A stretch of 64,000 nt of DNA from Actinomycetes bacterium (GCA_024641245.1 JAHEDK010000002.1:167136-231135), one strand, 5' to 3'; numbered from the stretch's first letter, positions 34,102-51,746 are shown. Notes: generated by a model not told the origin, from the sequence alone. A program made the numbers and translations.

Positions 34102-34584
34102 GTGGCAGGAATGAGCCGTCGGACTTTCTTGAGTCGCGCCACCGCGTCGATTGTCGGCGGGATCGGCGCGCTGATGGGCATCCCCACGGTTGCCTATCTC
34201 ATTTCTCCTGCCAAGGCTCGCGGTGGTCTTGGAGTCGAGGCGATCCCGCTCGGGCCTACCAACAAAGTGCCAATCGGGGAACCCACCCTCTTCAAAGCAA
34301 CCATCGAGCGCAAGACCGGATGGGTCACGCAGGCCGAAGAGCTCGCCTTCTACGTCTTCACAGAAGACGGGCGCAACTTCACGGCACTGTCCAACGTTTG
34401 CACGCACCTTGGCTGCCGGGTGCGGTGGGTCGGCAACGAGAAACAGTTCTTCTGCCCTTGCCACAATGCCGTCTTCACCGAAACCGGGAAAGTGGTTTCG
34501 GGCCCACCGCCCAGAGCCCTAGACCAGTACGAGCTGTCGGTTGAAGGTGACCAGTTGTTCGTCGTCGGGAAGGTCGAAGCATGA
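34102..34584 (+). CDS. qcrA: Rieske [2Fe-2S] subunit, complex 1 (Tat signal)
   Basis: Twin-arginine signal MSRRTFLSRA. The Rieske boxes are CTHLGC and CPCHNAVF. Confidence 0.9.
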   Translation: MAGMSRRTFLSRATASIVGGIGALMGIPTVAYLISPAKARGGLGVEAIPLGPTNKVPIGEPTLFKATIERKTGWVTQAEELAFYVFTEDGRNFTALSNVCTHLGCRVRWVGNEKQFFCPCHNAVFTETGKVVSGPPPRALDQYELSVEGDQLFVVGKVEA

Positions 34585-35270
34585 TCCAGAAGCTCAGTGC
34601 TTGGTTCGAAGAGCGGATGGGATGGAAGCCGATCTGGACGGCACTGGCGCTCCGCAACATCCCCAAGGTCAACTGGCTGTACACGCTGGGCAGCGCCACG
34701 CTCCTCGTCACAGTGAACCAGATTCTGACCGGCATCCTCCTCACCATCTACTACGTCCCCAGCCCTCAGGATGCCTACAACAGCGTTGCCTTCATAACGA
34801 ACGAGATCACTGCCGGCTGGCTCATCAGAGGGCTGCATCATTGGGGTGCCAGTGCGATGGTCGTCCTGGCCGGACTCCACATGCTGCGGGTGGTCTTCCA
34901 CGGCGCCTATAAGTTCCCCCGCGAAATCACCTGGTTCACCGGACTCGGCCTCCTGGCCGTGACGATGGCCTTCGGATTCACCGGGTACTTGCTGCCGTGG
35001 GATCAGAAGGCTTACTGGGCTACCACGGTGGGTACCCGAATGCTGGAGGTGACACCCGTCATCGGTGATTGGCTGCTCCGGATCGCCCGCGGTGGGGAAG
35101 AGCTGTCGGCCGTGACGCTCACCCGGTTCTACGGAACCCATGTATGGGTGCTCCCGTCGGTGCTCCTGCTACTCCTGGGTATCCACCTCTTTCTGGTCGT
35201 CCGCGTCGGCATCAGCGCACCTCCGACACCCAAGGAGACAGACGAGAAGCCCAAAGTGTGGTTCGAATAA
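34581..35270 (+). CDS. qcrB: cytochrome b6-type subunit, complex 1 (four-helix, split cytochrome b)
   Basis: The haem ligand pairs are LHHWGASAMVVLAGLH (i/i+14) and THVWVLPSVLLLLLGIH (i/i+15), as in b6/Bacillus QcrB. Overlaps the Rieske gene by 4 bp. Confidence 0.9.
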   Translation: MIQKLSAWFEERMGWKPIWTALALRNIPKVNWLYTLGSATLLVTVNQILTGILLTIYYVPSPQDAYNSVAFITNEITAGWLIRGLHHWGASAMVVLAGLHMLRVVFHGAYKFPREITWFTGLGLLAVTMAFGFTGYLLPWDQKAYWATTVGTRMLEVTPVIGDWLLRIARGGEELSAVTLTRFYGTHVWVLPSVLLLLLGIHLFLVVRVGISAPPTPKETDEKPKVWFE

Positions 35271-37669
35271 TGAAACGCGAAGAACGCTCCAAATACCTCG
35301 AGGAGTACGCAGAGGACAAGAAGAAGGGCATCCCGTTCTTCCCGGACGCCGTGTTCAAGGACGTCCTGGTTGCATTGATCGTGTTGATCATTCTCATCGG
35401 CCTCGCCTACTTCGCAGGCGCCCCGCTCGAAGAACGTGCGAATCCATCCGACAGCGACTACACACCTCGACCGGAGTGGTACTTCCTCTGGCTCTTCCAA
35501 CTGCTCAAGTACTTTCCGGGCAACCTCGAGTTCGTCGGCGTCATCCTCCTGCCTGCCCTCGGATTCGCCATCCTCTTCGCCATGCCGTACCTGGACAGGA
35601 CCAAGCTCCGTCACTTCCGCAACCGCAGTTGGGTGATGGCATCAACCGGCGTCGCCGTGGTAGCCATGGGGTTTCTCACAGTCCAATCCATCAGGGAGAC
35701 CCCGGCGCCGGCCGACGTGAGCGGCACCATCAACGCCGCCGTTCTCTTCACCGAGAATTGCTCCGTATGCCACGGCACATCGATCGATGTCCCGACCGGG
35801 ATAAACCTGCATGAGACGATTGCCGGGGGTCACGAGGGGATGCCGGCCTTCGCAGCCACTCTGTCGACCGATGAAATCGATGCCCTCGCAGGATTCCTGG
35901 TCTCTCCGCAGGGAGGGGCGATATTCACCGCCAACTGCGCGGCATGCCACGATTCGAGTGACCTCGCCGCCGCCACCCCGTTCCAGCTCCAGGACGCCCT
36001 GAATCAAGGCACCGCCTACGCGCCGCATGATGGACTCGACATACCCGACTGGTCCGAGGTCCTCTTCGGCCAGGATCGAACCGCGCTCCTCAACTTCTTG
36101 CTTGCTCCGGACGGCCAGCGCCTCTACACGCTCTACTGCTCCGAATGTCACGGAACCTCGATCAGCTGGGAAGGGGAACGAGACGAACTCGAAGCGCTCA
36201 TCCGCCAGGGCGGCAACCACCTCGAGATGACCCAGTGGAGGGACGTGCTGCCGGAGGACCAGATCACCGAACTCGCTCTGTTCGTCGTCGAACCATCCAC
36301 GGCTCCCGGGGGCGAGCAACTGTTTGCACAGCACTGCTCGAGTTGTCACGGCGTGCGGGTGCCGAGCGCTCCCGACATAGAAACCGCCTACAACATCATC
36401 GCCGACGGTGCAGAGCACCGATCGATGCCTGTCTGGGGCGACGTTCTCACCGAGGAGCAGCTAACCGCACTCACAACCTACACGCTCGAAGCCAGTCGCG
36501 GCACACCGGTCATCGTCGGCCAGCAACTGTTCGGTCAATTGTGCTCGTCGTGCCACGGTGACTTCGGTGAAGGCGGCCCGAACCCCGCCGACCCCATCAG
36601 AATCATCCCTCCGATCAGTACGGCGAGCTATTTGGAGACCCGGGACGACGCCACGTTGCGCGCCATCATCTCAAAGGGTCAGTCGGACCAGGGCATGTCG
36701 CCTTTCCTGGAGAGCGAAGGTGGACCGCTGACCGAGGACGAGGTGAATGCCGTGGTTGCGTTCCTCCGTTCGTGGGAATCGGATCCGCCGGTCGATTTGC
36801 CGCCCGATCTTGCCCGTGGACCCGTCGCGGGTGGAAGCGTGCAGGTGTATGCGGCGTTCTGCGCCCAATGCCACGGAGCAGATGGGGCAGGCGGCCCCGA
36901 TTTGGTCGGTCCTTCCTTGACCTCGGCAGAATTCCAGGATTCCTTCACCGATGAGCAACTGCACGAGGCCATCGACCTCGGCCATGCTGCTACTTCGATG
37001 ATCGCCTGGGGCGAGGTCCTCACCGCCGATCAGATCCAGGGACTCGTCGACCACATCCGCTCGCTGGGCGGACGCGGTACCCTGCAGACGATCGTCTACG
37101 AACGCGACATTGCTCCGATCTTCCAGGCGTCTTGCGCCGGTTGCCACGGGTCGTCGGGGGGTTGGGATGCATCCACCATGGAGTCCGTGATCGGCAGCGG
37201 AAGCAGCGGGCCGGCCGTCGTCGCCGGCGATCCCGACGGGAGTCATCTCGTGCAGCGCCTTCGTGGCGAGGGCAACTTGATGCCCCCGGCCGGAGCGCTG
37301 CCGGACAACCAACTCGATCTGATCGTGCAATGGATTGCCGGGGGAGCAACCGCCGAAGTGACAACAGGCGACGCGCAATCCGGCGGCGGCGACATCGGTG
37401 ATTACACGTGGACGAAGGATGTCCAGCCGATCCTGCAGGCCAGTTGCGCGGCCTGCCACGGATCGTCCGGGGGTTGGTACGCGGGGACGTACAGCTCCAC
37501 GATCAACAGCGGCGACAGCGGTCCGGCCGTCGTCCCTGGGAATGCCGACGACAGTTCGATGATCCAACGACTGCTCGGCAACGGCAACCTGATGCCGCCG
37601 GGAGCTCCGCTTTCGGAAGAACAGATCGCCGTCCTGATCTACTGGGTCAACAGCGGCGCCAAGGAATAG
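35270..37669 (+). CDS. qcrC: subunit IV (cytochrome b C-terminal, PEWY) fused to eight cytochrome c domains (six class-I-like plus two PSCyt1-like)
   Basis: ATG 35270 overlaps the cytochrome b TAA stop. The N-terminus has three TM helices with RPEWYFLWLFQLLKYF. Eight CXXCH motifs follow: CSVCH, CAACH, CSECH, CSSCH, CSSCH, CAQCH, CAGCH, CAACH. The last two domains have the 'planctomycete cytochrome c' pattern (CxxCHG...GPAVV.G.....S.L.QRL......MPP...L....I..WI..GA). Confidence 0.85.
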   Translation: MKREERSKYLEEYAEDKKKGIPFFPDAVFKDVLVALIVLIILIGLAYFAGAPLEERANPSDSDYTPRPEWYFLWLFQLLKYFPGNLEFVGVILLPALGFAILFAMPYLDRTKLRHFRNRSWVMASTGVAVVAMGFLTVQSIRETPAPADVSGTINAAVLFTENCSVCHGTSIDVPTGINLHETIAGGHEGMPAFAATLSTDEIDALAGFLVSPQGGAIFTANCAACHDSSDLAAATPFQLQDALNQGTAYAPHDGLDIPDWSEVLFGQDRTALLNFLLAPDGQRLYTLYCSECHGTSISWEGERDELEALIRQGGNHLEMTQWRDVLPEDQITELALFVVEPSTAPGGEQLFAQHCSSCHGVRVPSAPDIETAYNIIADGAEHRSMPVWGDVLTEEQLTALTTYTLEASRGTPVIVGQQLFGQLCSSCHGDFGEGGPNPADPIRIIPPISTASYLETRDDATLRAIISKGQSDQGMSPFLESEGGPLTEDEVNAVVAFLRSWESDPPVDLPPDLARGPVAGGSVQVYAAFCAQCHGADGAGGPDLVGPSLTSAEFQDSFTDEQLHEAIDLGHAATSMIAWGEVLTADQIQGLVDHIRSLGGRGTLQTIVYERDIAPIFQASCAGCHGSSGGWDASTMESVIGSGSSGPAVVAGDPDGSHLVQRLRGEGNLMPPAGALPDNQLDLIVQWIAGGATAEVTTGDAQSGGGDIGDYTWTKDVQPILQASCAACHGSSGGWYAGTYSSTINSGDSGPAVVPGNADDSSMIQRLLGNGNLMPPGAPLSEEQIAVLIYWVNSGAKE

Positions 37670-37811: not shown

Positions 37812-39608
37812 ATGGAGAAACTTCACTTCTTCGACGAGAACATCCCCTGTCTCGCCGCCTGTCCGGTCAACACGAATGCCGGCATGTACGTTGCCGCCAT
37901 CGCAGACGGACAGGATGAACTGGCCTATCTAACCGCTCGCCTCCCCAACCCGTTCGCCTCCGTCTGCGGTCGGGTTTGTGCGGCGCCATGCGAGGACGCC
38001 TGTCGGCGCGGCGAAATCGACAAGCCCATCGCCATCCGGGCGCTCAAGCGATTCGTCACCGATCAATTCGGCGTCGAATCCGGCATGGATACCTACCGGC
38101 AGGTCGCCGCCCCTGCTCTCGAGTCGCGATCACAAAGCGTCGGGATTGTCGGAGGGGGCCCGGCCGGCCTGGCCGCCGCCCACGACCTCCGCCGCCTCGG
38201 CTACGGCGTCACGCTGTACGAAGCCACCGGTCAGCTCGGCGGCATGATGCTGCTGGGGATCCCCGAGTACCGCCTTGATCGATCCCTCCTGGCGGCGGAG
38301 ATCAAGGCCATCACCGACCTGGGCGTCGAGGTTCGGTTGAACACGAAACTCGGCGATGGCATCACGCTCGATGACCTCCGCCGGCAGCACGATGCCCTAT
38401 TCGTGGCCATCGGGGCGACCCTCGGACGCGGACTCGACCTCGAAGGCCACGACGCAGACGGGGTGTTGAAGGCGATCGAGTACCTGATCAACGCCAACCA
38501 GGGGTTCGCAACCGACGTCGGTCAGAAGGTGGTCGTAATCGGTGGCGGCGACGTGGCGATGGATGCAGCAAGGACCGCGCTACGAGCTGCAACCTACGAT
38601 GAGATCGCCCGCCGCCATGCCGAATACGACGAAGAGGACGGGCGCTCATCCATGACGGAAGCCCTCGACGTGGCTCGCACGGCTGCCCGGACTGGTGCTC
38701 AGGACATAACCATCATGTCACTCGAGGCCAAACACGAGATGCCGGCGTCGGAGTTCGAGGTCGAAGAGGCCGAGCACGAGGACATCAAGTTTGTCAACCG
38801 GCGCGGTCCCGCCCGGATACTCACCGCCGATGGCAAGGTCACCGGCATCGAGACGATCGGGGTCACGCGCGTTTTCGACGAGAACGGCCGGTTCTCCCCT
38901 GAATTCGACGATGCAGATCGGCTGACGCTGGAGGCAGACACCATCATCATGGCTATCGGCCAGGCGATCGATGTTGAGGCACTGGGAGCGAACGGCCCTG
39001 AGTTGAGTCCTCGCAAGACAATCCAAGTGGGTGAGGACAGCCTGGCGACTTCGCTTCCGATGGTATGGGCCGGCGGCGATGCAGCCAGGGGCCCGCGCAC
39101 TCTCATCGATGCGATCGCAGACGGCCGGATTGCGGCCCGTGAGATCCACGAGGCGTTTGGCGGCAGCTTCGCCGAGCAGGATACCGGAACCATGGTGCAA
39201 CTGGACCAGTTCCACCGTCTCGACGACATCTACGACCGGGTCCCCCGGGTCGCCGTGCCCACGCTGCCGACGGACCGGCGCATCGGTCTGGCAGAAGTCG
39301 AAACAGGGTTCACCGTCGAAGAGGCCAGGTGTGAGGCACAGAGGTGTCTGCGCTGCTTCGCCAACATCCTGCTCGATACCGACATTTGTGTTTTATGCGC
39401 GCTGTGCGCCGACGTCTGCCCGCTCGACCTGATTTCGCTGGTTCCCTCGGAGGACATTCACCCAGACGAGCCGGGTGGCACGGCGTTAATGTTGAACGAG
39501 CAAAGCTGCATCCGTTGCGCGCTGTGTATTGAGCGATGCCCGACAGATGCACTGTCGATGGGACTGTGGACCGGAGTGGGAGTGCCGAAATTGGGAGCAC
39601 CGGTATGA
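37812..39608 (+). CDS. GltD-like FAD/NAD(P)-binding Fe-S oxidoreductase with C-terminal 2x[4Fe-4S] ferredoxin domain
   Basis: N-terminal GltD-type cluster region (CLAACPVNTN...FASVCGRVCAAPCEDACRR). Dinucleotide folds VGIVGGGPAGLAAA and VVVIGGGDVAMDAA. C-terminal CLRC...CVLCALCADVCP...CIRCALCIERCP. Confidence 0.85.
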   Translation: MEKLHFFDENIPCLAACPVNTNAGMYVAAIADGQDELAYLTARLPNPFASVCGRVCAAPCEDACRRGEIDKPIAIRALKRFVTDQFGVESGMDTYRQVAAPALESRSQSVGIVGGGPAGLAAAHDLRRLGYGVTLYEATGQLGGMMLLGIPEYRLDRSLLAAEIKAITDLGVEVRLNTKLGDGITLDDLRRQHDALFVAIGATLGRGLDLEGHDADGVLKAIEYLINANQGFATDVGQKVVVIGGGDVAMDAARTALRAATYDEIARRHAEYDEEDGRSSMTEALDVARTAARTGAQDITIMSLEAKHEMPASEFEVEEAEHEDIKFVNRRGPARILTADGKVTGIETIGVTRVFDENGRFSPEFDDADRLTLEADTIIMAIGQAIDVEALGANGPELSPRKTIQVGEDSLATSLPMVWAGGDAARGPRTLIDAIADGRIAAREIHEAFGGSFAEQDTGTMVQLDQFHRLDDIYDRVPRVAVPTLPTDRRIGLAEVETGFTVEEARCEAQRCLRCFANILLDTDICVLCALCADVCPLDLISLVPSEDIHPDEPGGTALMLNEQSCIRCALCIERCPTDALSMGLWTGVGVPKLGAPV

Positions 39609-40342
39609 CATTGGGCCAACGAATCCGCGAAAGCACGATAGGTCGTTCGATCTGGCGCGCCACCGACCGAACCACCGAACGCGACCAGGCGGCCGGTCAC
39701 TGGGCGAACTTCTTTCTGCACATCTACCCGGTGAAAGTGCGCAAGAAGGAGATCACGTTCCGCTATTCCTGGTATCTAGGTGTGGCGTCGGTGGTCCTGT
39801 TCGGATCGCTGATCGTTTCGGGCATCTACCTGATGTTCTTCTACGTCCCGTCGCCTGCCCAGGCCTACGGCGACATCCTCAACCTGCAAACGCGGGTCGC
39901 GTTCGGACAGTACATCCGCAACGTGCACCGCTGGTCGGCTCACCTCATGGTGCTGGTGGTGGCCGCGCACATGGCCCGGGTGTTTTATCGAGGGGCATAC
40001 AAGAAACCCCGCGAATTCAACTGGGGTATCGGCGTGATCCTCCTCGTGCTCACGCTGCTCCTTTCGTTCACCGGCTACCTGCTCCCCTGGGACCAGCTCG
40101 CCTACTGGGCGGTCACGGTCGGCACCGAGATGGCCGCCTTCGTCCCGCTGATCGGGGACACCGTCAAGGAAATGATGCTGGGTGGGCCGGTGGTTGCTTC
40201 GTCGACGCTGCTGCGGTTCTACGTTCTGCATGTCGCCGTTCTGCCCACGGCTGTCGTTCTCCTCATCACAATCCATATGTGGAGATGGCGCAAAGACAGC
40301 ATGCTCGACGCGGCGAAGGAGGGTGTTGATGTCGACGCCTAG
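39605..40342 (+). CDS. cytochrome b6-type subunit, complex 2
   Basis: ATGA overlap with the oxidoreductase gene. The His pairs are VHRWSAHLMVLVVAAH (i/i+14) and LHVAVLPTAVVLLITIH (i/i+15). Confidence 0.9.
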   Translation: MTLGQRIRESTIGRSIWRATDRTTERDQAAGHWANFFLHIYPVKVRKKEITFRYSWYLGVASVVLFGSLIVSGIYLMFFYVPSPAQAYGDILNLQTRVAFGQYIRNVHRWSAHLMVLVVAAHMARVFYRGAYKKPREFNWGIGVILLVLTLLLSFTGYLLPWDQLAYWAVTVGTEMAAFVPLIGDTVKEMMLGGPVVASSTLLRFYVLHVAVLPTAVVLLITIHMWRWRKDSMLDAAKEGVDVDA

Positions 40343-40865
40343 ACCAGATCAGGAAAATCCTGAGATCGTCGCCGGACAACGGGTGCTCGGGGTTGTTCCA
40401 GGCAAGCCGCCGGGCGGCGACCGCAAGGTTCTGAGCGAGCAGGAACCGGTCATGGTCTGGCCGCACCTACTCGTCCGCCACGGGGTGGCGGCGCTGGTGG
40501 TCATCGCCGTCGTTCTGGTGCTTGCCATATTCTTCGATGCCCCGCTGCGTGAGATCGCCAACCCCACGCTGACGCCCAACCCGGAAAAGGCCCCCTGGTA
40601 TTTCGCGGCGCTCCAGGAGCTGCTCTCGATGTTCCATCCGCTGGTGGCCGGTGTGCTGGTCCCGGGCGCCATCGTCCTCGGGCTCTTCGCGCTTCCGTAT
40701 GTGGATCGGACTTCGACGATCGAGCCGCGGTTCCGCAAGGTGGCGGTGGCGACGTTCACGATCTTCATGGTCGTGTGGATAGTCCTGACGGTTATCGGAT
40801 TCGCCTTCCGCGGCCCCAACTGGGGTTGGGTGTGGCCATGGCAAGAGTGGTACGGAGAGCTATGA
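40329..40865 (+). CDS. subunit IV-like (cytochrome b C-terminal) protein, complex 2
   Basis: Three TM helices. EKAPWYFAALQELLSMF aligns with the PEWY region, so the motif reads APWY here. I prefer ATG 40329 inside the track ORF. Confidence 0.8.
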   Translation: MSTPRPDQENPEIVAGQRVLGVVPGKPPGGDRKVLSEQEPVMVWPHLLVRHGVAALVVIAVVLVLAIFFDAPLREIANPTLTPNPEKAPWYFAALQELLSMFHPLVAGVLVPGAIVLGLFALPYVDRTSTIEPRFRKVAVATFTIFMVVWIVLTVIGFAFRGPNWGWVWPWQEWYGEL

Positions 40866-41368
40866 GCAACGGAATCGGTCGGAGAGAATTCCTATCCCGG
40901 GCCTGGAAGTGGGGTGCCGCCCTCATCGGTGTCGCCGGCGGTTGGACCACGTGGGATATCCTGCAGCCCCGGGTCACCGGAGGCTTTGGTGGCGTCATCA
41001 AGACCAAGGCAGCCGACACAGTGCCGGACACCAACGTCGAATCCATCCGGGCCGCCAGAACCTACCTGACGAAGATCGACGGGCAGGTTGTAGCCCTCTC
41101 CGAGAAATGCCCGCACCTCGGTTGCCGGGTGCCGTGGTGTGATTCGTCCGGACAGTTCGAGTGCCCGTGCCACGGCTCGGTCTTCAACCGGGCGGGCGAG
41201 TACCGCGCAGGGCCCGCTCCCCGCGGAATGGACCGCTACGAGTTCGAGACGATCGACGGCATCGTCTACGTAGACACCGGAGCACCGGTATCCGGGCCGG
41301 CAATCGGTGTGGAGACCCTCAACGAACCCGTACGAGGGCCATCGTGTGAGGACAGCTCCCATGGGTGA
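40862..41368 (+). CDS. Rieske [2Fe-2S] subunit, complex 2 (Tat signal)
   Basis: GRREFLSRAWKWG Tat-like signal. The Rieske boxes are CPHLGCRV and CPCHGSVF. ATGA overlap with the preceding gene. Confidence 0.9.
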   Translation: MSNGIGRREFLSRAWKWGAALIGVAGGWTTWDILQPRVTGGFGGVIKTKAADTVPDTNVESIRAARTYLTKIDGQVVALSEKCPHLGCRVPWCDSSGQFECPCHGSVFNRAGEYRAGPAPRGMDRYEFETIDGIVYVDTGAPVSGPAIGVETLNEPVRGPSCEDSSHG

Positions 41369-41825
41369 GCGTCCGGTTGACCAGGAACTCGAACAGTCGA
41401 CCGTCAGATGGATGCAGGCCGGACTGGCCCTGATGGTCGTCCTGGTGCTGGCGTTTCCCGCCTACCGGCTCCTCGAACCTACCAACCGCGAAGAAGCACG
41501 CGACCTCTTGACGGAAGAACTCGCCGTCCAGGGCGAAGAGCTATTCGCGGGGCAGTGCGCCTCCTGTCACGGCGAAAAGGGGCTGAATGGACCGATCGGT
41601 CCGTCGCTCAACTCGAAGCAGTTCCTGGAGGCGGCCACCGACAGCCAGATCATCAGCCTCGTCTCGGTCGGCGTCCCGGGCTCTCAGATGGGCGCCTACT
41701 CGATCGACTTCGGAGGCCCACTGACACTCGAGCAAATCACCGGCATCGCAACCTATCTGCGCTCGCTGGAGAAAGACGCCCCGGACAATCCTGACTGGCG
41801 AGCAGTAGTAACGCCGGGGAGCTAG
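41361..41825 (+). CDS. membrane-anchored monohaem class I cytochrome c, complex 2
   Basis: N-terminal TM anchor, CASCHG, and the distal Met region GVPGSQMGAY. Confidence 0.85.
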   Translation: MGERPVDQELEQSTVRWMQAGLALMVVLVLAFPAYRLLEPTNREEARDLLTEELAVQGEELFAGQCASCHGEKGLNGPIGPSLNSKQFLEAATDSQIISLVSVGVPGSQMGAYSIDFGGPLTLEQITGIATYLRSLEKDAPDNPDWRAVVTPGS

Positions 41826-41852
41826 TCGCGGGTTGCTAGTCGCGGGTTGCTA
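41821..41852. repeat. tandem 14-mer GCTAGTCGCGGGTT x2.3 spanning the cytochrome c stop codon
   Basis: GCTAGTCGCGGGTT GCTAGTCGCGGGTT GCTAG. The first TAG (41823-41825) is the stop codon. Confidence 0.9.
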
Positions 41853-41948
41853 GCTCACAGGCGACCCTCTCGCGCGTTTCTCCCCCGCACCGGCGGGGGA
41901 GATGCCGAGGTCCACGAGGCAGAGGGGGTTACTCGCGACCGCGACCCG

Positions 41949-42371
41949 CTACGCGTCCGTCGGGACCTCGTAGGGGTGCCCTTCGTCCTCGGGCGCTTGG
42001 TACTGCTCGTCGTGTTTGACGACCAGCTGGTCGCTGCGGAAGACGTCACCGTCCCAGGCGCCTTCGACGATCGCACCGACGCCTTCGCGGAACAGTTCCG
42101 GTGGGGCTCCCTGGTGCACGATGTGCACTTCATGGGCACCGTCGGACACGGTGAACTCGACTCCATCCGAGGTGGCAACCAGTGTCCCGACTTCGACCTG
42201 ACCGCCGAGCCGGAACCGCTCACCATCGGGGAACTGAGCCCTCTGCTCGATAGCTTCGTTGGGGGTCAAGTAGTAGACGAGGTTCTCGCCGAGGCTGAGA
42301 AACACCATCCATCCGATGATCACAACGATCGCTCCGATGGCGGGAAGTACGAACCAGCGATATCGAGTCAT
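41949..42371 (-). CDS. ccmE: cytochrome c maturation haem chaperone CcmE
   Basis: N-terminal anchor, OB-fold, and the haem-binding motif LVVKHDEQY (compare E. coli VLAKHDENY). Confidence 0.9.
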   Translation of the reverse strand: MTRYRWFVLPAIGAIVVIIGWMVFLSLGENLVYYLTPNEAIEQRAQFPDGERFRLGGQVEVGTLVATSDGVEFTVSDGAHEVHIVHQGAPPELFREGVGAIVEGAWDGDVFRSDQLVVKHDEQYQAPEDEGHPYEVPTDA

Positions 42372-42372
42372 G

Positions 42373-42486
42373 TCAGCCCTCCACCCGGCGGCGGACGCTG
42401 CGCAGGCGCACAGTCAAGAACACCGCATATCCGATCATGAAGCCGTACACCACCGTGTAGGCAAAAACGACCCATCCGTTAGACAT
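42373..42486 (-). CDS. ccmD: CcmD-like small membrane protein (37 aa), not in the ORF track
   Basis: The minus-strand ORF reads MSNGWVVFAYTVVYGFMIGYAVFLTVRLRSVRRRVEG. It sits between ccmC and ccmE, overlapping the ccmC stop by 8 nt and ending 1 nt before the ccmE ATG. One TM helix plus a basic tail is the CcmD layout. Confidence 0.55.
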   Translation of the reverse strand: MSNGWVVFAYTVVYGFMIGYAVFLTVRLRSVRRRVEG

Positions 42487-43204
42487 CTCGCACCTTCTCG
42501 AGGTTGGGAGCCGTGATGGCGGCACCGGCGGGCGTGGCATCAGCGGCGGCGGATTGTTCTTCGAGTTGTTCCTCGCCCCTGGCGATGGCCGTCTTGACGC
42601 TCATGAAGGCGAGATAGACCACGGTGAACGCTCCAACGTTGCTGAGCAACGCCAGCAGGATCTCTCCATCGATCGGAGAATCCGGTCGCACCACCGTGAT
42701 CCCCTGGTGCAACGTGCGAACGATGATCACCGAAACGTAGGACAGCGGCACGAGGAAGAAGGCCACGATGCCCAGCACCGCGGATCTCGTCGCCCGCATG
42801 GCCGGGTCGGGAATGCTGCGGCGCAAAGCCAGGTAACCGAGGTAGACGAAGAACATGAGGGCCGTCGTCATCATGCGGGCATCGCCCCAGTCCCAGAACG
42901 TCCCCCACACCGGGTAACCCCAGATCATGCCGGTCATGAGCGCCAGCGCGGTGAAGAACACGCCGACCGAGACGCTGGACTCGGCGATTCGATCGTAAAC
43001 GGGCTTGCGTCTCGCCAGCCACAGGATCGAGGCGGCGAACGTCACAAGAAACGAGAGGTAGGCAAGCCACGCCGAAGGTACGTGCACGTACATGATGCGG
43101 GTGTAGTCGCCCTGCAACTGATCGAGCGGCGCCTGGCCACCGAAGTAGAAGCCGACCAGCACCGCTGCCAGTGCGATCAACCCGAGTATTCGATGTCTAT
43201 TCAA
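42479..43204 (-). CDS. ccmC: haem exporter/haem handling protein CcmC
   Basis: WWD motif WGYPVWGTFWDWGDARM with flanking His residues, and six TM helices. Confidence 0.9.
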   Translation of the reverse strand: MNRHRILGLIALAAVLVGFYFGGQAPLDQLQGDYTRIMYVHVPSAWLAYLSFLVTFAASILWLARRKPVYDRIAESSVSVGVFFTALALMTGMIWGYPVWGTFWDWGDARMMTTALMFFVYLGYLALRRSIPDPAMRATRSAVLGIVAFFLVPLSYVSVIIVRTLHQGITVVRPDSPIDGEILLALLSNVGAFTVVYLAFMSVKTAIARGEEQLEEQSAAADATPAGAAITAPNLEKVRDV

Positions 43205-43881
43205 CGTGAGGCCTCCTCGAGGAATCGGGCGGTCAGCACACCTACCACTGCCAGCCCGAGTACCACGGCAAGTAGCAGAAGGATGGGAGTGAGGATACTT
43301 GACTTCTGAGCCAACGCTTCATACGTCTGTGATGCTCCGACGAGCAGCGGCAACGCCAGCGGTGCCACCAGCAGCGGTGCCAGCGTGTTACGAGAGCGCA
43401 GACCGGCCGTGATACCGGAGGCGAGCGTACCGATGAGCGCCAGGCCGACGGCCATCAGCAGAAGGACCAAAATCAGGATCGCCCACCCCTCTACCGGGTC
43501 CGGGTTGTAGAGGATGATCGTGGCGGGCGCAAGCACTCCTTCGAACACGAGCAACAGGAGGACGCTCGCCACAACCCTGCCCGCGAACTGCGCGGCCGGG
43601 TCCACGCCGAGCAACACCATCATCTCGCGATTGGCCGAACTCTCTGTGGCCGACTGGCGGAACGTGACCAGCATCCCGAACAGCAGGGTCACGACCCAGA
43701 ACATGCCCGGTCCGATCGAGGCGATGAGTGGACGGTCGGTCCCGATCGCCAGCGGGATGAGCAGCAGCGCAACCGCTCCAAACGGGATCGTGATGTTCAG
43801 GACCTCGCCGGTCCGTCCTTCGACCCGCAGATCCTTCAACCCGATCTCATATGCCTGGCCCCAGAACGACGGACCGCTCAT
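43201..43881 (-). CDS. ccmB: haem exporter membrane protein CcmB
   Basis: Six-TM CcmB-like protein lying between ccmA and ccmC, with 4-bp overlaps on both sides. Confidence 0.85.
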   Translation of the reverse strand: MSGPSFWGQAYEIGLKDLRVEGRTGEVLNITIPFGAVALLLIPLAIGTDRPLIASIGPGMFWVVTLLFGMLVTFRQSATESSANREMMVLLGVDPAAQFAGRVVASVLLLLVFEGVLAPATIILYNPDPVEGWAILILVLLLMAVGLALIGTLASGITAGLRSRNTLAPLLVAPLALPLLVGASQTYEALAQKSSILTPILLLLAVVLGLAVVGVLTARFLEEASR

Positions 43882-44534
43882 GATGAGCTCCCCGCGATCA
43901 CGATCCCACCCGTCAGCTCATAGGTCGATTGCACCAGCGGCAGCATGCGATCGAGTTCGTGGGACACGAAGACGGCGGCGCCACCACGGGAACGGACGTT
44001 CTCGACAACTGCGTCGACGAGTTGTCCGGCCTCTCGATCTAGTCCGGCGTGGGCCTCATCGAGCAGCAGTAGGTCGGGCCTGGTGAGAATCACCCTGGCG
44101 AACTCAACTCGCCGCTGCATACCATGCGACGACTGCTCCGCCCGCCGGTGCTTCGCCCCACCCAGCCCGACCACGTCGAGCATCTCATCTACCCGCTCGT
44201 CAGTGTGGCCCGACAACCGGGCGACGAAGGCGAGATTCTCACGCAGCGTCAACTGCGGGTAGAGCGCCGGTTGATGGCCGATCAGCGCGATCCGGCGCCG
44301 GATCGCAAACGCCGTCGCTTCGCCCATCTCGGTGCCGAACACCGCCACCGAGCCCTCCGTCGGTCGCAGCAACGTGGCCAGCACCCGGAGCAGCGTCGAC
44401 TTTCCCGAACCATTCGGCCCAACGATCCCGGCTGCCTCCCCGGACGGTACCGCCAGCTCCACGCCCTTCAATACCGGCACCCGGCCGTATCGAACGGCGA
44501 CGCCGTGCAGCTGCACTGTGGGAGGTGTGGACAT
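43878..44534 (-). CDS. ccmA: haem exporter ATP-binding protein CcmA
   Basis: Walker A GPNGSGKST, ABC signature SHGMQRR, and Walker B LLLLDEA. I prefer ATG 44534. Confidence 0.9.
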   Translation of the reverse strand: MSTPPTVQLHGVAVRYGRVPVLKGVELAVPSGEAAGIVGPNGSGKSTLLRVLATLLRPTEGSVAVFGTEMGEATAFAIRRRIALIGHQPALYPQLTLRENLAFVARLSGHTDERVDEMLDVVGLGGAKHRRAEQSSHGMQRRVEFARVILTRPDLLLLDEAHAGLDREAGQLVDAVVENVRSRGGAAVFVSHELDRMLPLVQSTYELTGGIVIAGSSS

Positions 44535-44804
44535 GACAGACGAGTGTACGCACGCAGCTTCGGGCGCCGAAACGCGACCCCGGATAAACACCACCCGTTC
44601 TCTCCCTTTCGCCACCTTTTCAGGGTTTTATGGCGGGTTTCAACCCAGGCAGGGCCCAAGTGCCCCAGGGCGCGAGGACTTTGCGCTGTTGGTGTGTTTC
44701 CGATATACCCGTATCCTCTGCAATGAGAAACGGGGGACCGACCCTGAATCGCCGCCGGAACGGCTCATTCACACGGTGATCCCCATGGAGGAAGGCACAG
44801 CAAA

Positions 44805-46844
44805 ATGAACGCGACCCTCGGGTATCTCTCGATCCTGGCCGCAGTGGTGGGAGCGCTCGGTATCACCGTGCGGGGTTTCATCGCGATGCGTGATCCGGAG
44901 CGGGCGAACAAAGGGTATCTGGGGTTGCCCGTCATACTGTTCGTGTCCGGAGCCGTCGGCGCAATGTTCTTCCTGGAACTCGGGCTTCTCACCGACGACT
45001 TCTCGATCAAGTACATCGCCAACAACTCCTCGACCACCACCCCGTTTCTCTTCAAGGTCGCCTCTGGATGGGCATCGCTGGAGGGATCGATCGTTTTGTG
45101 GGGTCTGGTCCTGGCCGGCTTCACATTCGCCGTATACGCACGGTTCTTCAGAAGCGAAAGCGGCGACCGGCTCGCAGCAGGGGCTCTGGCGATCATGGGG
45201 CTCATCTCTCTTTACTTCTTCGGGCTAATGGCCACAATCTCCGACCCATTCGCTCGCTGCGTGCAAACGTTCAGCGACGGTGTCGGTTGTGTGACCGGCG
45301 AGAACGCGATCCTCGCCAACGTGATCTCCTCCCCGATCGAAGGGCGCGGCGCCAACGCACTGCTCCAGAACCATTGGCTCATGGCCCTGCATCCACCAAC
45401 GCTCTACGTCGGCTATGTCGGGCTCAGCGTCCCCTTTGCGTTTGCCATCTCGGCGCTCCTCCTCAAAACCACCGGGGCGGCCTGGCTGACCCGGACCCGC
45501 AACTGGACGGTGTTCGCCTGGATGTTCCTCACTGCCGGCATTGTTCTCGGTGGGCTCTGGTCGTATGAGGTGCTCGGCTGGGGCGGCTACTGGGCATGGG
45601 ACCCGGTTGAGAACGCCTCCTTCATGCCGTGGCTGGTCGCGACTGCCTTCTTGCACTCGTCTGTCGTGCAGGCGAGGCGCGGGATGCTGCAGTCGTGGAA
45701 CTTCGTCCTCGTCATCACGACCTTCGCGCTCACGATTCTCGGCACCTTCTTGACCCGCTCCGGCGTAATCGTTTCGGTTCACAGCTTCTCGCAGTCCGCC
45801 ATCGGGCCTGCCCTGTTGATCTTCCTGGTGGTCGTGCTGCTGGGATCGCTCGGGCTCTTCGCGTCAAGGGCTCACACCATCGCCTCTTCTCCCCGGCTCG
45901 ATTCACTCAGCAGCCGGGAAGGGGTGTTCTTGTTCAACAACCTTCTGCTCACCGTGTTCGCGTTCATGGTGCTGACAGGGACGCTCTACCCGCTCTTCGT
46001 TGAGGCGTTCTCCGACTCGACGGTGGGCGTCGGTCGTCCGTTCTTCGATCGCATGGCGATCCCGTTGTCCTTCCTGTTGCTGCTGGCGATGGGCATCGGA
46101 CCGGTCTCGCCCTACCGGGCGGCGAGCGCCCGCGTCGTGTGGGAGCGGATTCGCTGGCCCGTCCGGGTTGCCCTCGGCGCCGCCGCGCTGGCCGTCGTGT
46201 TCGGCTATCGGAACTCGTTCCTGCTGCTCGGTGTTCTGGCCGCCGTGTTCGTCATGGGCGTGATCATCCGCAACCTCTACGACGCCGCCCGGACCAGGGC
46301 AGACAAACTCGGTATCGGACGGAGACAGGCCGCCGCCCGGATCATGCGCGGCGACCCGCACTATTGGGGTGGCCAGATCTCCCACCTGGGCGTTGCGATA
46401 CTGGCACTGGGCATCGCCTTCTCAGCCAACCTGTCGGAGACCGCCACGGTGACCATCGACGCCGGAGATACGGTCAACTTCGCCGGCTTCGAGGTGACCT
46501 ACGAACAGGAGTTCAGCCGCCAGGAACCGGGCCGGTTCGTCACCGGAGCAGACATCACGGTGACCCGGGACGGGTCGGTCGTCGGTACGTACCAGCCACG
46601 GCTGAATCAGTACGGCAACACGCGGGAATCGATCGCCACCCCAGAGGTCGACACCATGTTCTCAGGCGACCTGTACCTCTCGCTCCGCAGCATCGATCCT
46701 TCATCCGTGACCCTCGAGGTCTATTGGTTCCCGTTCATCTGGCTCATCTGGGTTGGAGGCTTCCTGGCGGCCGCCGCCGGGGTCTGGGGATTCGCGGTCA
46801 AGAAGCCCGAACGTTCGGTTGCACGGGACGACACGCGTGTCTGA
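44805..46844 (+). CDS. ccmF: cytochrome c haem lyase subunit CcmF
   Basis: Large polytopic protein with the WWD motif WGGYWAWDPVENAS. GGAGGAAGG RBS. Confidence 0.9.
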   Translation: MNATLGYLSILAAVVGALGITVRGFIAMRDPERANKGYLGLPVILFVSGAVGAMFFLELGLLTDDFSIKYIANNSSTTTPFLFKVASGWASLEGSIVLWGLVLAGFTFAVYARFFRSESGDRLAAGALAIMGLISLYFFGLMATISDPFARCVQTFSDGVGCVTGENAILANVISSPIEGRGANALLQNHWLMALHPPTLYVGYVGLSVPFAFAISALLLKTTGAAWLTRTRNWTVFAWMFLTAGIVLGGLWSYEVLGWGGYWAWDPVENASFMPWLVATAFLHSSVVQARRGMLQSWNFVLVITTFALTILGTFLTRSGVIVSVHSFSQSAIGPALLIFLVVVLLGSLGLFASRAHTIASSPRLDSLSSREGVFLFNNLLLTVFAFMVLTGTLYPLFVEAFSDSTVGVGRPFFDRMAIPLSFLLLLAMGIGPVSPYRAASARVVWERIRWPVRVALGAAALAVVFGYRNSFLLLGVLAAVFVMGVIIRNLYDAARTRADKLGIGRRQAAARIMRGDPHYWGGQISHLGVAILALGIAFSANLSETATVTIDAGDTVNFAGFEVTYEQEFSRQEPGRFVTGADITVTRDGSVVGTYQPRLNQYGNTRESIATPEVDTMFSGDLYLSLRSIDPSSVTLEVYWFPFIWLIWVGGFLAAAAGVWGFAVKKPERSVARDDTRV

Positions 46845-47250
46845 TTCGATTCGCAAGATCGCGGCGGCGGTGGTGACTATCGGCCTGGCGGTTGTCGTCG
46901 TAATCGGCCTCATCCAGGGCGACCGAACCGATGAAGATCGCGCCCGGTCCATCGGCTCCAGAGTGAAGTGTCCCGTTTGCCAGGGCGTAGCCATTGCCGA
47001 TTCTCCTTCGGAAACTGCCAGAGCGATGATGGACGTCGTCGAAGAGCGAATCGCAGACGGGTGGTCGGACAGACAGATCATCGACTACTTCGCGGAGCGC
47101 TACACCGACAGCATCGTCATCGACCCGCCCTTCAGCGGGAATACGCTGCTCGTCTGGCTGCTGCCGATCCTGGCAGTAGTCGCAGGCTTCTTCATGATCT
47201 TCTCCCGGCGCAAGACGCCGGTGCCAAAACCCGATGAGGTGAAACAGTGA
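46837..47250 (+). CDS. ccmH: cytochrome c biogenesis protein CcmH
   Basis: The CXXC motif is KCPVCQG, followed by the conserved SDS..A..M segment and a C-terminal TM helix. GTG 46837 overlaps the ccmF stop. Confidence 0.85.
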   Translation: MSDSIRKIAAAVVTIGLAVVVVIGLIQGDRTDEDRARSIGSRVKCPVCQGVAIADSPSETARAMMDVVEERIADGWSDRQIIDYFAERYTDSIVIDPPFSGNTLLVWLLPILAVVAGFFMIFSRRKTPVPKPDEVKQ

Positions 47251-51698: not shown

Positions 51699-51707
51699 CG
51701 TGACAGA

Positions 51708-51733: not shown

Positions 51734-51746
51734 TCGTTGTTCCCCC

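What the first reader, a model, noticed from the sequence alone, without database searches (positions are those of the whole stretch)
35270..37669. Subunit IV fused to eight cytochrome c domains, including two 'planctomycete cytochrome c'-type domains
Seen directly: the product has three N-terminal TM helices with a canonical PEWY, followed by about 620 aa containing eight CXXCH motifs. Six units look like class I cytochrome c with Met-containing distal segments (GMPAF, SMPVWG, GMSPF, SMIAWG). The last two units are near-identical in pattern: (I/V)xPI(F/L)QASCAxCHGSSGGW...SGPAVV.G...S.(L/M)(V/I)QRL.G.GNLMPP...L....(L/I)....W(I/V).(G/S)GA. I recognise this as the PSCyt1 family shape.

Established knowledge: Bacillus QcrC is subunit IV plus one haem c domain, and heliobacterial versions are dihaem.

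An octahaem extension would form a roughly 8-haem wire leading away from the Qo/Rieske site. I am not aware that such an extension has been described.
Basis: partly seen in the sequence, partly recalled or inferred. Interest (0 to 1): 0.6.

Follow-up and report, generated by a model that had tools for sequence, protein, structure and literature searches.

The report
Complex III subunit carrying eight haems
A respiratory 'complex III' membrane subunit in an uncultured actinobacterium is genuinely fused to a chain of eight haem-binding domains; it is the eight-haem version of a widespread but apparently undescribed seven-haem family from Chloroflexota, and probably passes electrons outward from the membrane without any soluble carrier.

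Summary
ORF 35270-37669 (+) encodes 799 aa: a three-helix subunit IV with PEWY, then eight CXXCH domains. Six are class I and the last two score as Pfam PSCyt1. All 16 cysteines lie in the motifs.

The fusion is not an artefact. Two independent assemblies give the identical ORF, and more than 100 homologues share the architecture, always in a Rieske / cytochrome b6 / subunit IV-c operon.

It is not a one-off. The common form has seven haems (about 700 aa, Anaerolineales). Forms with 2, 4, 6, 8 and 10 haems also exist, following the scheme SUIV-[class I]n-[PSCyt1]m. The PSCyt1 end-domain has been duplicated independently several times and hangs on variable linkers that are Pro/Thr-rich in the longest cases.

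The window is from Acidimicrobiia, so the operon was probably acquired from Chloroflexota.

Best reading: a menaquinol-oxidising b6c-type complex whose c1/f subunit and soluble carriers are replaced by a fixed haem relay (D1-D6) plus tethered output heads (D7, D8). A strictly linear eight-haem wire is not shown. Mono- and dihaem relatives have a D5-like domain next to subunit IV, so D1-D4 may be a side arm, and D2 lacks the distal Met.

I found no description in the searchable literature. It is a new variant of a known kind.

The parts
34102..34584 (+). Rieske [2Fe-2S] subunit of the operon. It has a twin-arginine leader (SRRTFL) and box II reads CPCHNAVF (Ala and Phe where high-potential Rieske proteins have Ser and Tyr).
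   Evidence: Pfam Rieske 48.2 bits. Sequence. Its stop overlaps the next start (ATGA). The gene order is conserved in all related loci. Reading the box II residues as indicating a low potential is inference from established knowledge.
34581..35270 (+). Four-helix cytochrome b6-type subunit (229 aa). The two His pairs for haems bL and bH are present. Thr replaces the haem-ci/cn Cys (NWLYTLGS).
   Evidence: Pfam Cytochrome_B 170 bits. NCBIfam cytochrome b6 239 bits and ExtP 225 bits, both below their cut-offs. Sequence.
35270..37669 (+). The finding: subunit IV fused to eight c-type haem domains (799 aa). Its start overlaps the b6 stop (TAATG).
   Evidence: The identical ORF occurs in two independent assemblies.
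35270..35719 (+). Subunit IV module (aa 1-150). It has three TM helices, and the PEWY Qo motif is at aa 68-71 (nt 35471-35482). With three helices the C-terminus lies on the positive (outer) side.
   Evidence: Pfam Cytochrom_B_C. Helices. P68, W70, Y71, F72, F76 and Q77 are invariant in 119 sequences.
35720..36502 (+). D1-D4: four short (59-69 aa) class I haem units placed back to back with no linkers. They are mutually related (D3 vs D4 E = 3e-15; D1 vs D4 E = 2e-8). D1, D3 and D4 carry an invariant H-x-x-M. D2 (35897-36097) has H253-x-x-L and no Met.
   Evidence: This block is absent from the mono- and dihaem relatives.
36503..36814 (+). D5: a larger class I unit (104 aa, distal M476). It is the counterpart of the single c domain that directly follows subunit IV in mono- and dihaem relatives.
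   Evidence: up to 52% identity, 96-106 bits to D5..
36815..37087 (+). D6: a class I unit (distal M577) that follows a Pro-rich linker (PPVDLPPDLARGPVAGG). It is missing in the six-haem relatives.
   Evidence: The only low-pLDDT stretch inside D1-D6 is this linker.
37088..37369 (+). D7: the first PSCyt1-type haem domain (CAGCHGSSGGW ... GNLMPP ... WIAGGA).
   Evidence: Pfam PSCyt1.. D7 and D8 each form their own clade across the eight-haem lineage.
37370..37666 (+). The D7-D8 linker (about 12-20 aa, Gly/Ser/Asp-rich, poorly conserved) followed by D8, the second PSCyt1-type haem domain.
   Evidence: Linker pLDDT is 37 for block 701-710. The linker is 33% identical within the clade, against 71-85% for the domains. 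Best Pfam PSCyt1 stretch is 726-777.
37812..41825 (+). An adjacent second Rieske/cytochrome b locus. It is genomic context rather than part of the fusion. Genes: a GltD-like FAD/NAD(P) oxidoreductase with Fe-S clusters (37812-39608), cytochrome b (39605-40342), a subunit IV-like protein with APWY instead of PEWY (40329-40865), Rieske (40862-41368), and a membrane-anchored monohaem c (41361-41825).
   Evidence: The same arrangement occurs in L001-L003 and L084. It is absent next to the Anaerolineales heptahaem genes.
41949..48685 (.). Cytochrome c maturation System I, needed to attach the haems on the outer face: CcmE(-), CcmC(-), CcmB(-), CcmA(-), CcmF(+), CcmH(+), a TPR protein, and a thioredoxin-like CcmG.
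   Evidence: The gene order matches L084.

Best explanation
The gene encodes the subunit IV of a b6c-type, menaquinol-oxidising Rieske/cytochrome b complex. In this complex the role of cytochrome c1/f, and of the soluble cytochrome c that would normally follow it, is taken over by c-haem domains fused to the outward-facing C-terminus of subunit IV.

Proposed mechanism:
1. Quinol is oxidised at the PEWY Qo site.
2. One electron goes to the Rieske cluster.
3. The Rieske head reduces the membrane-proximal haem. This is most likely D1, which starts only a few residues after helix 3.
4. Electrons pass through a compactly folded block of class I haems (D1-D5/D6).
5. They leave through one or more PSCyt1-type end domains (D7 and D8 here). 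These sit on flexible linkers and act as tethered shuttle or docking heads for the acceptor, which could be a terminal oxidase or reductase, or wall-associated or extracellular multihaem cytochromes.

Such a design suits cells that cannot retain soluble periplasmic carriers (Actinomycetota, and arguably Chloroflexota).

The eight-haem form arose by one tandem duplication of the PSCyt1 head in an Acidimicrobiia lineage that probably acquired the operon from Chloroflexota.

Shown: the domain composition, the conservation of haem sites and ligands, the operon, the family and its modular series, and the variability of the linkers.

Inferred: the direction and order of electron flow, the rigidity of D1-D6, the mobility of D7 and D8, and the identity of the acceptor.
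For: - The subunit IV, class I and PSCyt1 domains all pass Pfam cut-offs.
- The Rieske, b6 and SUIV-c8 genes overlap at ATGA and TAATG, and the order is conserved in about 80 loci.
- All eight CXXCH motifs, and distal Met in seven domains, are conserved across 119 sequences.
- Every domain is 71-85% identical within the eight-haem clade, but the D7-D8 linker only 33%.
- There is a modular series SUIV-[class I]n-[PSCyt1]m with n = 1, 5 or 6 and m = 1, 2 or 4.
- PSCyt1 duplications occurred independently in P0018, P0015 and the window's clade.
- The D6-to-PSCyt1 linker varies from 7 to 59 residues, and the longest are rich in Pro, Thr, Glu and Ala.
- AF2 gives pLDDT 84.6 and pTM 0.56 for D1-D6, with one weak linker, against pTM 0.35 for the whole protein with low-confidence linkers before D6 and D8.
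- In Anaerolineales locus L083, a related C-terminal PSCyt1-type domain (a variant with His in place of the MPP Met) also ends a b561-type membrane cytochrome and a NapC/NirT-type heptahaem quinol dehydrogenase encoded immediately upstream. This marks PSCyt1 as a shared output module.
- Ccm System I genes and at least eight multihaem cytochromes with 5-11 haems lie within 25 kb.
- Precedents: subunit IV or cytochrome b fused to one class I cytochrome c (PMC4122944); separate hexa- or octahaem c subunits in anammox Rieske/b complexes (PMC12954380); Geobacter ExtOPQ clustered with 10-12-haem ExtMN (PMC5877670).
Against: - No experiment and no model with haems is available. AF2 inter-domain confidence is only moderate, and I could not read coordinates to measure haem spacing.
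- In mono- and dihaem relatives the domain next to subunit IV is D5-like. D1-D4 were therefore inserted later, and D5 could still be the Rieske partner, with D1-D4 as a side arm.
- D2 lacks a distal Met. It may be a low-potential or five-coordinate haem, which is awkward in a simple downhill chain.
- No terminal oxidase or reductase lies in the 64-kb window, so the acceptor is unknown.
- The D6-D7 linker in this particular protein is short, so D7 may be less mobile than in many seven-haem homologues.
Confidence: 0.6

Rival explanations
1. A dedicated extracellular-electron-transfer outlet. The haem chain spans the cell envelope and hands electrons specifically to wall-associated or extracellular multihaem cytochromes for reduction of Fe(III), Mn(IV) or electrodes. 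This would make a proton-motive complex III the membrane entry point of the EET pathway.
For: - The window holds at least eight multihaem cytochromes (5-11 CXXCH each), an NHL beta-propeller, and TPR and SurA-like genes just downstream.
- Anaerolineales loci also carry 9-10-haem proteins beside the operon.
- Both cytochromes b score close to the Geobacter ExtP model, and ExtOPQ is linked to Fe(III)-oxide growth (PMC5877670).
- Anaerolineae are rich in multihaem cytochromes, and EET has been proposed for them (bioRxiv 10.1101/2021.08.23.457424).
Against: - His/Met class I haems usually have high potentials, suited to oxidases or N-oxide reductases rather than to poorly soluble Fe(III) oxides.
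- Oxidising menaquinol through a Q cycle towards low-potential acceptors yields little driving force.
- The multihaem cytochrome island is separated from the operon by about 11 kb and by the Ccm genes.
- No co-expression data exist.
Confidence: 0.25
2. A branched or capacitor architecture. The functional path is Rieske to D5, D6 and then PSCyt1, as in the ancestral two-haem proteins. The inserted D1-D4 block would be a four-haem side arm. It could store electrons, bridge the two monomers or a neighbouring complex, or provide a second exit.
For: - The c domain adjacent to subunit IV in mono- and dihaem relatives is D5-like, at up to 52% identity.
- D1-D4 are a distinct, mutually related set of short units, absent from the roughly 400-aa forms.
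- D2 has atypical ligation.
Against: - D1 starts only about 7-12 residues after TM helix 3. That pins it at the membrane surface, where the Rieske-facing domain sits in Bacillus-type proteins (inference).
- D1-D5 are predicted as one continuous well-folded block.
- The two models cannot be separated without coordinates.
Confidence: 0.2
3. Reverse or uphill operation. The chain collects electrons from an external donor (Fe(II), reduced humics or a partner cell) and feeds them into the complex. This could operate together with the adjacent oxidoreductase-containing Rieske/b complex to drive NAD(P)+ reduction, as proposed for anammox complexes.
For: - In the eight-haem clade the gene is always followed by a GltD-like FAD/NAD(P) and Fe-S oxidoreductase with its own cytochrome b, APWY-type subunit IV, Rieske and monohaem c.
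- Anammox Rieske/b complexes with such a subunit are proposed to make NAD(P)H by quinol-based bifurcation (PMC12954380).
Against: - The oxidoreductase locus is absent next to the far more numerous seven-haem genes, so it is not an inherent partner.
- A 143-bp gap separates the two loci.
- There is no marker of lithotrophy in the window.
Confidence: 0.07
4. An assembly or sequencing artefact, or a pseudogene, in which separate cytochrome c genes were joined into one ORF.
For: A few related loci show the gene broken into two frames (L034, L037, L038, L042).
Against: - The identical 799-aa ORF with the same neighbours occurs in two independent assemblies.
- 17 eight-haem, 102 seven-haem and one ten-haem full-length homologues from NCBI, JGI, ENA and Logan share the architecture.
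- All haem motifs and ligands are conserved.
- All domains appear to be conserved by selection.
- The broken copies are collinear with intact genes, consistent with read errors.
Confidence: 0.01

Closest known systems
[quoted passage not shown]
   Same: Split cytochrome b, a three-helix subunit IV with PEWY, a C-terminal class I cytochrome c fused on the outer side, a Rieske/b6/SUIV-c operon, and a host without a conventional periplasm.
   Different: There are eight haem domains instead of one. There are PSCyt1-type end domains. The cognate b6 lacks the haem-ci Cys. No curated NCBIfam model reaches its cut-off.
Anammox Rieske/cytochrome b complexes Kuste4569-4574 and Kustd1480-1485 (PMC12954380)
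   Same: A b6-type cytochrome b plus a subunit IV-like protein, with a hexa- or octahaem cytochrome c in place of cytochrome f. An NAD(P) oxidoreductase-bearing relative lies next door in this window.
   Different: In anammox the multihaem c is a separate subunit with its own anchor, the subunit IV has five helices, and the haem proteins are unrelated in sequence. Here the haems are class I units fused to a three-helix subunit IV.
Actinobacterial dihaem QcrC (cytochrome cc) of the bcc-aa3 supercomplex
   Different: QcrC is a separate gene with two haems and works with a long cytochrome b. The match is far below the cut-off of 200 bits.
Membrane-tethered cytochrome cy (Rhodobacter CIII2CIV supercomplex) and the dihaem CcoP
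   Same: A class I haem head on a flexible tether that shuttles between complex III and its acceptor. This matches the variable (7-59-residue) linkers before the PSCyt1 heads, the longest of which are Pro/Thr-rich.
   Different: In cy the tether is attached to its own membrane anchor rather than to a chain of six further haems on subunit IV.
Geobacter ExtOPQ (Rieske, cytochrome b, subunit IV-like) with ExtM/ExtN multihaem cytochromes (PMC5877670)
   Same: A Rieske/b module genomically linked to 10-12-haem cytochromes and implicated in Fe(III)-oxide respiration. Both cytochromes b in the window score 225-260 bits on the ExtP model.
   Different: The scores are below the ExtP cut-off of 290. The Ext multihaem proteins are separate, of c3/c7 type, and periplasmic in a diderm.
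Ignavibacterium album cytochrome b fused to a trihaem c7 domain (Kao & Hunte 2014)
   Same: More than one c-haem fused to the C-terminus of the Qo-bearing subunit.
   Different: It has three haems of the c7 (class III) type on a long cytochrome b with a GPWY motif.

Membership tests
Cytochrome b6f/b6c subunit IV (Pfam PF00032 Cytochrom_B_C) | Profile match above the curated threshold | tested here: met
   44.1 bits against a cut-off of 20.7, residues 57-158. phmmer also hits cytochrome b C-terminal halves and b6f subunit 4 in the PDB.
Cytochrome b6f/b6c subunit IV (Pfam PF00032 Cytochrom_B_C) | Three transmembrane helices with the PEWY Qo motif in the loop after helix 1 | tested here: met
   Helices at 26-49, 86-108 and 120-143. 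PEWY at 68-71, with P68, W70 and Y71 invariant in 119 sequences.
Cytochrome b6f/b6c subunit IV (Pfam PF00032 Cytochrom_B_C) | Encoded directly after a four-helix cytochrome b6 and alongside a Rieske protein | tested here: met
   Rieske 34102-34584 and b6 34581-35270, with overlapping stops and starts. The arrangement is conserved in related loci.
Firmicute-type QcrC (b6c complex) | Exactly one C-terminal class I haem c domain after subunit IV | tested here: not met
   Eight CXXCH domains.
Firmicute-type QcrC (b6c complex) | Partner cytochrome b6 carries the CxGG Cys for haem ci/cn | tested here: not met
   The b6 reads NWLYTLGS, with Thr at the Cys position. The motif definition comes from PMC5600118.
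'PEWY-cyt c' clade sensu Kao & Hunte 2014 | PEWY motif plus a class I cytochrome c fused to the C-terminus of the cytochrome b C-terminal part | tested here: met
   Here the fused part is multiplied eightfold.
'PEWY-cyt c' clade sensu Kao & Hunte 2014 | Phylogenetic placement of the cytochrome b / subunit IV inside that clade | not tested
Mono- and dihaem relatives with the same subunit IV do exist.
Pfam PSCyt1 (PF07635, 'Planctomycete cytochrome C') | Profile match above the gathering score, with CXXCH near the N-terminus and a distal MPP | tested here: met
   54.2 bits against a cut-off of 22, two stretches. The pattern is CxxCHG..GGW ... G.LMPP ... W(I/V)..GA in both D7 and D8. The Met is invariant.
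Pfam PSCyt1 (PF07635, 'Planctomycete cytochrome C') | Typical planctomycete context (large proteins with PSCyt2/PSD1 domains) | tested here: not met
   No such domains occur in this protein or its neighbours. Here the domain ends quinol-oxidising membrane modules instead. The description of the typical context is from my own knowledge of Pfam.
Class I cytochrome c (Pfam PF13442 / PF00034) | N-terminal CXXCH with His as the fifth ligand and a conserved distal Met | tested here: met
Class I cytochrome c (Pfam PF13442 / PF00034) | The same feature, tested for domain D2 | tested here: not met
   Position 256 is Leu, Val, Gln, Ala or Ile. There is no conserved Met in residues 228-276, and H253 is invariant.
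Anammox-type Rieske/b complexes with a multihaem c | The multihaem c is a separate anchored subunit, the subunit IV has five helices, and an NAD(P) oxidoreductase belongs to the same complex | tested here: not met
   Here the haems are fused to a three-helix subunit IV. The oxidoreductase belongs to the neighbouring locus, which has its own b, subunit IV and Rieske. Family features are from PMC12954380.
Actinobacterial bc1 dihaem QcrC (NCBIfam NF050122) | Score at or above the curated cut-off | tested here: not met
   68.1 bits against a cut-off of 200, covering D5-D6 only.

The most novel reading that the evidence does not exclude
The SUIV-[class I]n-[PSCyt1]m extension is an envelope-spanning electron conduit whose length is tuned by domain copy number. 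It plugs a proton-pumping Q-cycle complex III directly into wall-associated or extracellular multihaem cytochromes in bacteria that lack a true periplasm (Chloroflexota, and by transfer Acidimicrobiia). PSCyt1 acts as a universal output plug shared with NapC/NirT-type and b561-type quinol dehydrogenases. This would be a previously unrecognised, energy-conserving route for extracellular electron transfer.
Probability: 0.2. Interest if true: 0.75.

Novelty: new variant of a known kind. Interest (0 to 1): 0.5.

Why it matters
Complex III normally ends in one haem (c1 or f) and relies on a diffusible carrier. Known exceptions add one or two haems (Bacillus QcrC, actinobacterial QcrC) or use separate multihaem subunits (anammox, Geobacter Ext).

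A family in which six to ten haems are fused to subunit IV, with an end domain whose copy number changes repeatedly, would be a natural experiment. It shows how monoderm or sheathed bacteria can wire quinol oxidation to distant acceptors.

The family is common in Anaerolineales, a dominant group in sediments, soils and activated sludge. Databases annotate it only as 'c-type cytochrome' or 'mono/diheme cytochrome c family protein', so metabolic reconstructions probably miss it.

It also assigns a first concrete context to the uncharacterised PSCyt1 domain, as a C-terminal output module of three different quinol-oxidising membrane proteins. And it points to horizontal transfer of a whole respiratory module between phyla.

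Tried and rejected
- **Assembly artefact or pseudogene:** rejected.
- **Haem-haem distances:** I could not measure them. Model coordinates are not exposed to the sandbox, and AF2 places no haems.
- **AlphaFold-database fold library:** afdb50 was unavailable.
- **PDB sequence search:** it returned only cytochrome b, subunit IV and small cytochromes c.
- **NCBIfam:** no model reaches its cut-off.
- **Promoter and terminator scan of 32.5-42.6 kb:** nothing above the shuffle expectation, so operon boundaries rest on gene overlaps only.
- **Literature:** ten searches found no description of a 7-10-haem subunit IV fusion. Dibrova et al. 2013 (BBA), which might show multihaem operons, is not held. 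Their 2017 paper does not mention it.
- **Possible Chloroflexota origin of the window:** I considered this because the nearest non-clade homologues are Anaerolineales. I rejected it because NadE homologues at 64-97% identity are consistently labelled Acidimicrobiia.
- **Gene +41847-42440:** rejected as a real gene. The syntenic locus L084 has CcmE on the opposite strand there.

Full report

Yes. The + strand from 35270 to 37669 translates without interruption into 799 residues. CXXCH motifs begin at residues 164, 223, 290, 356, 425, 531, 622 and 726. The protein has 16 cysteines and all of them lie in these motifs. Composition-preserving shuffles give 0.007 motifs on average.

Pfam places a subunit IV domain (Cytochrom_B_C, 44 bits) at 57-158. 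It finds seven stretches of Cytochrome_CBB3 (225 bits), Cytochrom_C (147 bits) and two stretches of PSCyt1 (54 bits against a cut-off of 22).

Three helices (26-49, 86-108 and 120-143) and PEWY at 68-71 complete a canonical subunit IV. With three helices the C-terminus, and therefore all haem domains, lies on the outer, positive face. That is where the Ccm System I encoded a few kb downstream operates.

The gene is the third of a tightly coupled operon. Rieske (34102-34584) overlaps b6 (34581-35270) at ATGA, and b6 overlaps the fusion gene at TAATG.

**2. Is it an artefact?**

No. The identical ORF with identical neighbours was assembled independently from two sequencing runs. A search of 5.8 billion proteins returned 1655 relatives. 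Among the best 120, 102 have seven CXXCH motifs (about 700 aa), 17 have eight (about 800 aa) and one has ten (1056 aa).

All eight haem sites are conserved. Within the eight-haem clade each domain is 71-85% identical, while the D7-D8 linker is only 33% identical.

A scan of one genome per GTDB species found 546 loci encoding subunit IV relatives. Roughly 40 of the best 80 loci carry a form with six or more haems, nearly all in Anaerolineales or other Chloroflexota MAGs, and always after Rieske and b6. Four loci show the gene broken by a frame change but are otherwise collinear. I read these as sequencing errors.

**3. Anatomy**

Self-comparison and family alignments give four parts:

- **D1-D4.** Four short (59-69 aa), linker-less, mutually related class I units.
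- **D5 and D6.** Two larger class I units, separated by a Pro-rich linker.
- **D7 and D8.** Two PSCyt1-type units, 55% identical to each other and separated by a poorly conserved Gly/Ser/Asp linker.
- **Ligands.** A distal Met is invariant in D1, D3, D4, D5, D6 and the terminal PSCyt1 domain across 119 sequences. D2 is the exception. The H-x-x-M of its sister units is H-x-x-L/V, no other Met is conserved, and H253 is invariant. D2 is therefore probably bis-His or five-coordinate.

The partner b6 has both His pairs but Thr in place of the haem-ci Cys. The Rieske box II reads CPCHNAVF, the low-potential pattern expected with menaquinol (sequence; interpretation from established knowledge).

**4. 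The family is modular**

Relatives follow the scheme SUIV-[class I]n-[PSCyt1]m:

| Form | n | m | Size and source |
|---|---|---|---|
| Dihaem | 1 | 1 | about 400 aa, many Anaerolineae |
| Six-haem | 5 | 1 | L027, L030, L032 |
| Seven-haem | 6 | 1 | the common 700-aa form |
| Eight-haem | 6 | 2 | the window's clade, plus P0018 and P0038 |
| Ten-haem | 6 | 4 | P0015 |

Other lineages have subunit IV or a long cytochrome b with 1, 2, 4 or 6 class I haems and no PSCyt1.

A neighbour-joining tree of PSCyt1 domains shows that D7 and D8 each form a clade across the Acidimicrobiia-type proteins, which indicates one duplication. The copies in P0018 and in P0015 cluster within each protein, which indicates independent duplications.

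The linker between D6 and the first PSCyt1 domain ranges from 7 to 59 residues, and the longest are rich in Pro, Thr, Glu and Ala.

In the Anaerolineales locus L083, the two genes immediately upstream of the operon are a b561-type membrane cytochrome and a NapC/NirT-type heptahaem protein. Both end in a related PSCyt1-type domain, a variant with His where the fusion has the MPP Met. Many other loci also show PSCyt1-like hits upstream. PSCyt1 therefore looks like a shared C-terminal output module of three different quinol-interacting membrane proteins.

**5. Structure prediction**

With a 119-sequence alignment, AF2 gives pLDDT 74 and pTM 0.35 for the full protein. Low confidence falls in the Qo loop, after helix 3, before D6 and before D8.

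D1-D6 alone gives pLDDT 84.6 and pTM 0.56, with a single weak stretch at the D5-D6 linker. This fits a folded relay block with tethered heads, but it does not prove it.

**6. Host and context**

NadE from the same window has homologues at 64-97% identity that are consistently labelled Acidimicrobiia. The eight-haem proteins are labelled likewise. Outside that clade, however, the nearest relatives (47-57% identity) are Anaerolineales. Horizontal acquisition from Chloroflexota is the simplest reading, although no phylogeny was built.

In the eight-haem clade only, the gene is followed after 143 bp by a second Rieske/b locus. It is headed by a GltD-like FAD/NAD(P) oxidoreductase with Fe-S clusters, and its subunit IV carries APWY. 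It belongs by motif to the 'APWY clade' of Kao & Hunte. In gene content it resembles the oxidoreductase-bearing anammox complexes.

Further downstream lie Ccm System I and at least eight multihaem cytochromes with 5-11 haems, an NHL propeller, and TPR and SurA-like genes. No terminal oxidase is in the window.

**7. How it most likely works**

The best-supported model is a menaquinol:acceptor oxidoreductase of the b6c type. The fused haems replace cytochrome c1/f and the diffusible carrier. The path runs from Qo to Rieske, then to the proximal haem, through the D1-D6 relay, to the tethered PSCyt1 head or heads, and on to the acceptor (confidence about 0.6).

The composition, conservation, operon structure, modularity and linker variability are shown. 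The order and direction of flow, the rigidity of D1-D6, the mobility of the heads and the identity of the acceptor are inferred.

An important caveat concerns the path. In mono- and dihaem relatives the domain next to subunit IV is D5-like, at up to 52% identity. D1-D4 were therefore inserted between helix 3 and the ancestral haem domain. The short connection from helix 3 to D1 argues that D1 now sits at the membrane. But a branched design (Rieske to D5, with D1-D4 as a side arm or capacitor) cannot be excluded.

A specific role in extracellular electron transfer is suggested by the surrounding multihaem cytochromes and by the Geobacter ExtOPQ precedent. It is weakened by the expected high potentials of His/Met haems. 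Reverse operation coupled to the neighbouring oxidoreductase complex is possible but unsupported for the family at large.

**8. Comparison with the known**

Fusions of one class I cytochrome c to subunit IV or cytochrome b are established. [quoted passage not shown] A trihaem c7 fusion occurs in Ignavibacterium.

Separate multihaem c subunits in Rieske/b complexes are known from anammox bacteria and are implied in Geobacter. Actinobacterial QcrC (dihaem) and tethered cytochrome cy are functional analogues.

This protein works like these systems but is not a member of the Firmicute QcrC, actinobacterial QcrC or anammox types. The defining features of each were tested and not met.

Ten full-text searches found no description of a 6-10-haem subunit IV fusion, nor of PSCyt1 as its end module. 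PSCyt1 itself appears in only five papers and has no assigned function. The search cannot see most subscription journals.

**9. Verdict**

The fusion and the domain types are right. 'Octahaem' is one state of a broader, mainly heptahaem family. The linear eight-haem wire remains a hypothesis.

I rate it a new variant of a known kind, with interest 0.5. It is not categorically new, but it is a widespread, unannotated elaboration of complex III with a clear and testable structural question.

Noticed in passing
window 37812-41825 (+): A second Rieske/cytochrome b locus begins 143 bp downstream. Its genes are a GltD-like FAD/NAD(P) oxidoreductase with 4Fe-4S domains, cytochrome b, a subunit IV-like protein with APWY (NPEKAPWYF) instead of PEWY, a Rieske protein (CPCHGSVF) and a membrane-anchored monohaem c. 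The gene content resembles the anammox Rieske/b complexes proposed to make NAD(P)H, but here it occurs in an Acidimicrobiia genome. It is adjacent to the fusion gene only in the eight-haem clade (L001-L003, L084).
   Followed up: partly
window 48795-62909: A dense island of multihaem c-type cytochromes: 48795-49484 (5 CXXCH), 49527-51698 (10), 52940-54094 on the minus strand (6), 54250-55752 (11), 56424-57296 (10), 57293-58309 (10), 58093-59157 (8) and 61800-62909 (9). It also holds SurA-like, TPR and NHL beta-propeller genes. This suggests extracellular electron transfer in an actinobacterium.
   Followed up: partly
window 41949-48685: A complete cytochrome c maturation System I (CcmE, C, B and A on the minus strand; CcmF, CcmH, a TPR protein and a thioredoxin-like CcmG on the plus strand) lies between the two bc loci and the cytochrome island. 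The + strand ORF 41847-42440 is probably not a gene, because CcmE lies on the opposite strand.
   Followed up: partly
L083 5667-8541 (Anaerolineales contig, upstream of its Rieske/b6/SUIV-7c operon): A b561-type (Ni_hydr_CYTB) membrane cytochrome and a NapC/NirT-type heptahaem protein both end in a PSCyt1-like domain. In these copies the MPP Met is replaced by His (GGHPGQL, GDQPHYAQL). The eighth domain of P0085 has the same His variant. Upstream PSCyt1-like hits occur in many other Anaerolineales loci.
   Followed up: partly
window 35897-36097 (domain D2, aa 210-276): This is the only haem domain without a conserved distal Met in any of 119 family members. H253 is invariant, and the position matching the Met of the sister domains is Leu, Val, Gln, Ala or Ile. 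It could be a bis-His or a five-coordinate (ligand-binding) haem inside the chain.
   Followed up: partly
window as a whole vs 35270-37669: There is a taxonomic mismatch. Housekeeping NadE (15112-16821, minus strand) has only Acidimicrobiia-labelled relatives at 64-97% identity. Outside its own clade, the fusion protein's nearest relatives are Anaerolineales (Chloroflexota) at 47-57%. This points to horizontal transfer of the operon.
   Followed up: partly
L034, L037, L038, L042: In these MAG contigs the heptahaem gene is split by a frame change part-way through but remains collinear with intact homologues. These are probably read errors rather than genuinely separate cytochrome genes.
   Followed up: no
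window 32954-33988 (+): A 344-aa ParA/MinD-like (weak CbiA) ORF sits directly upstream of the Rieske gene. It is conserved in that position in L084, and a 41%-identical copy occurs upstream in L014. Its relation to the complex is unknown.
   Followed up: no
P0353 (680 aa) and P0347 (746 aa): These are unsplit, long cytochromes b (PEWY at about residue 273-287) carrying 6 and 4 C-terminal CXXCH motifs respectively. P0347 is from Chloroflexota MAGs. Multihaem C-terminal extensions therefore arose on both split and unsplit cytochrome b.
   Followed up: no
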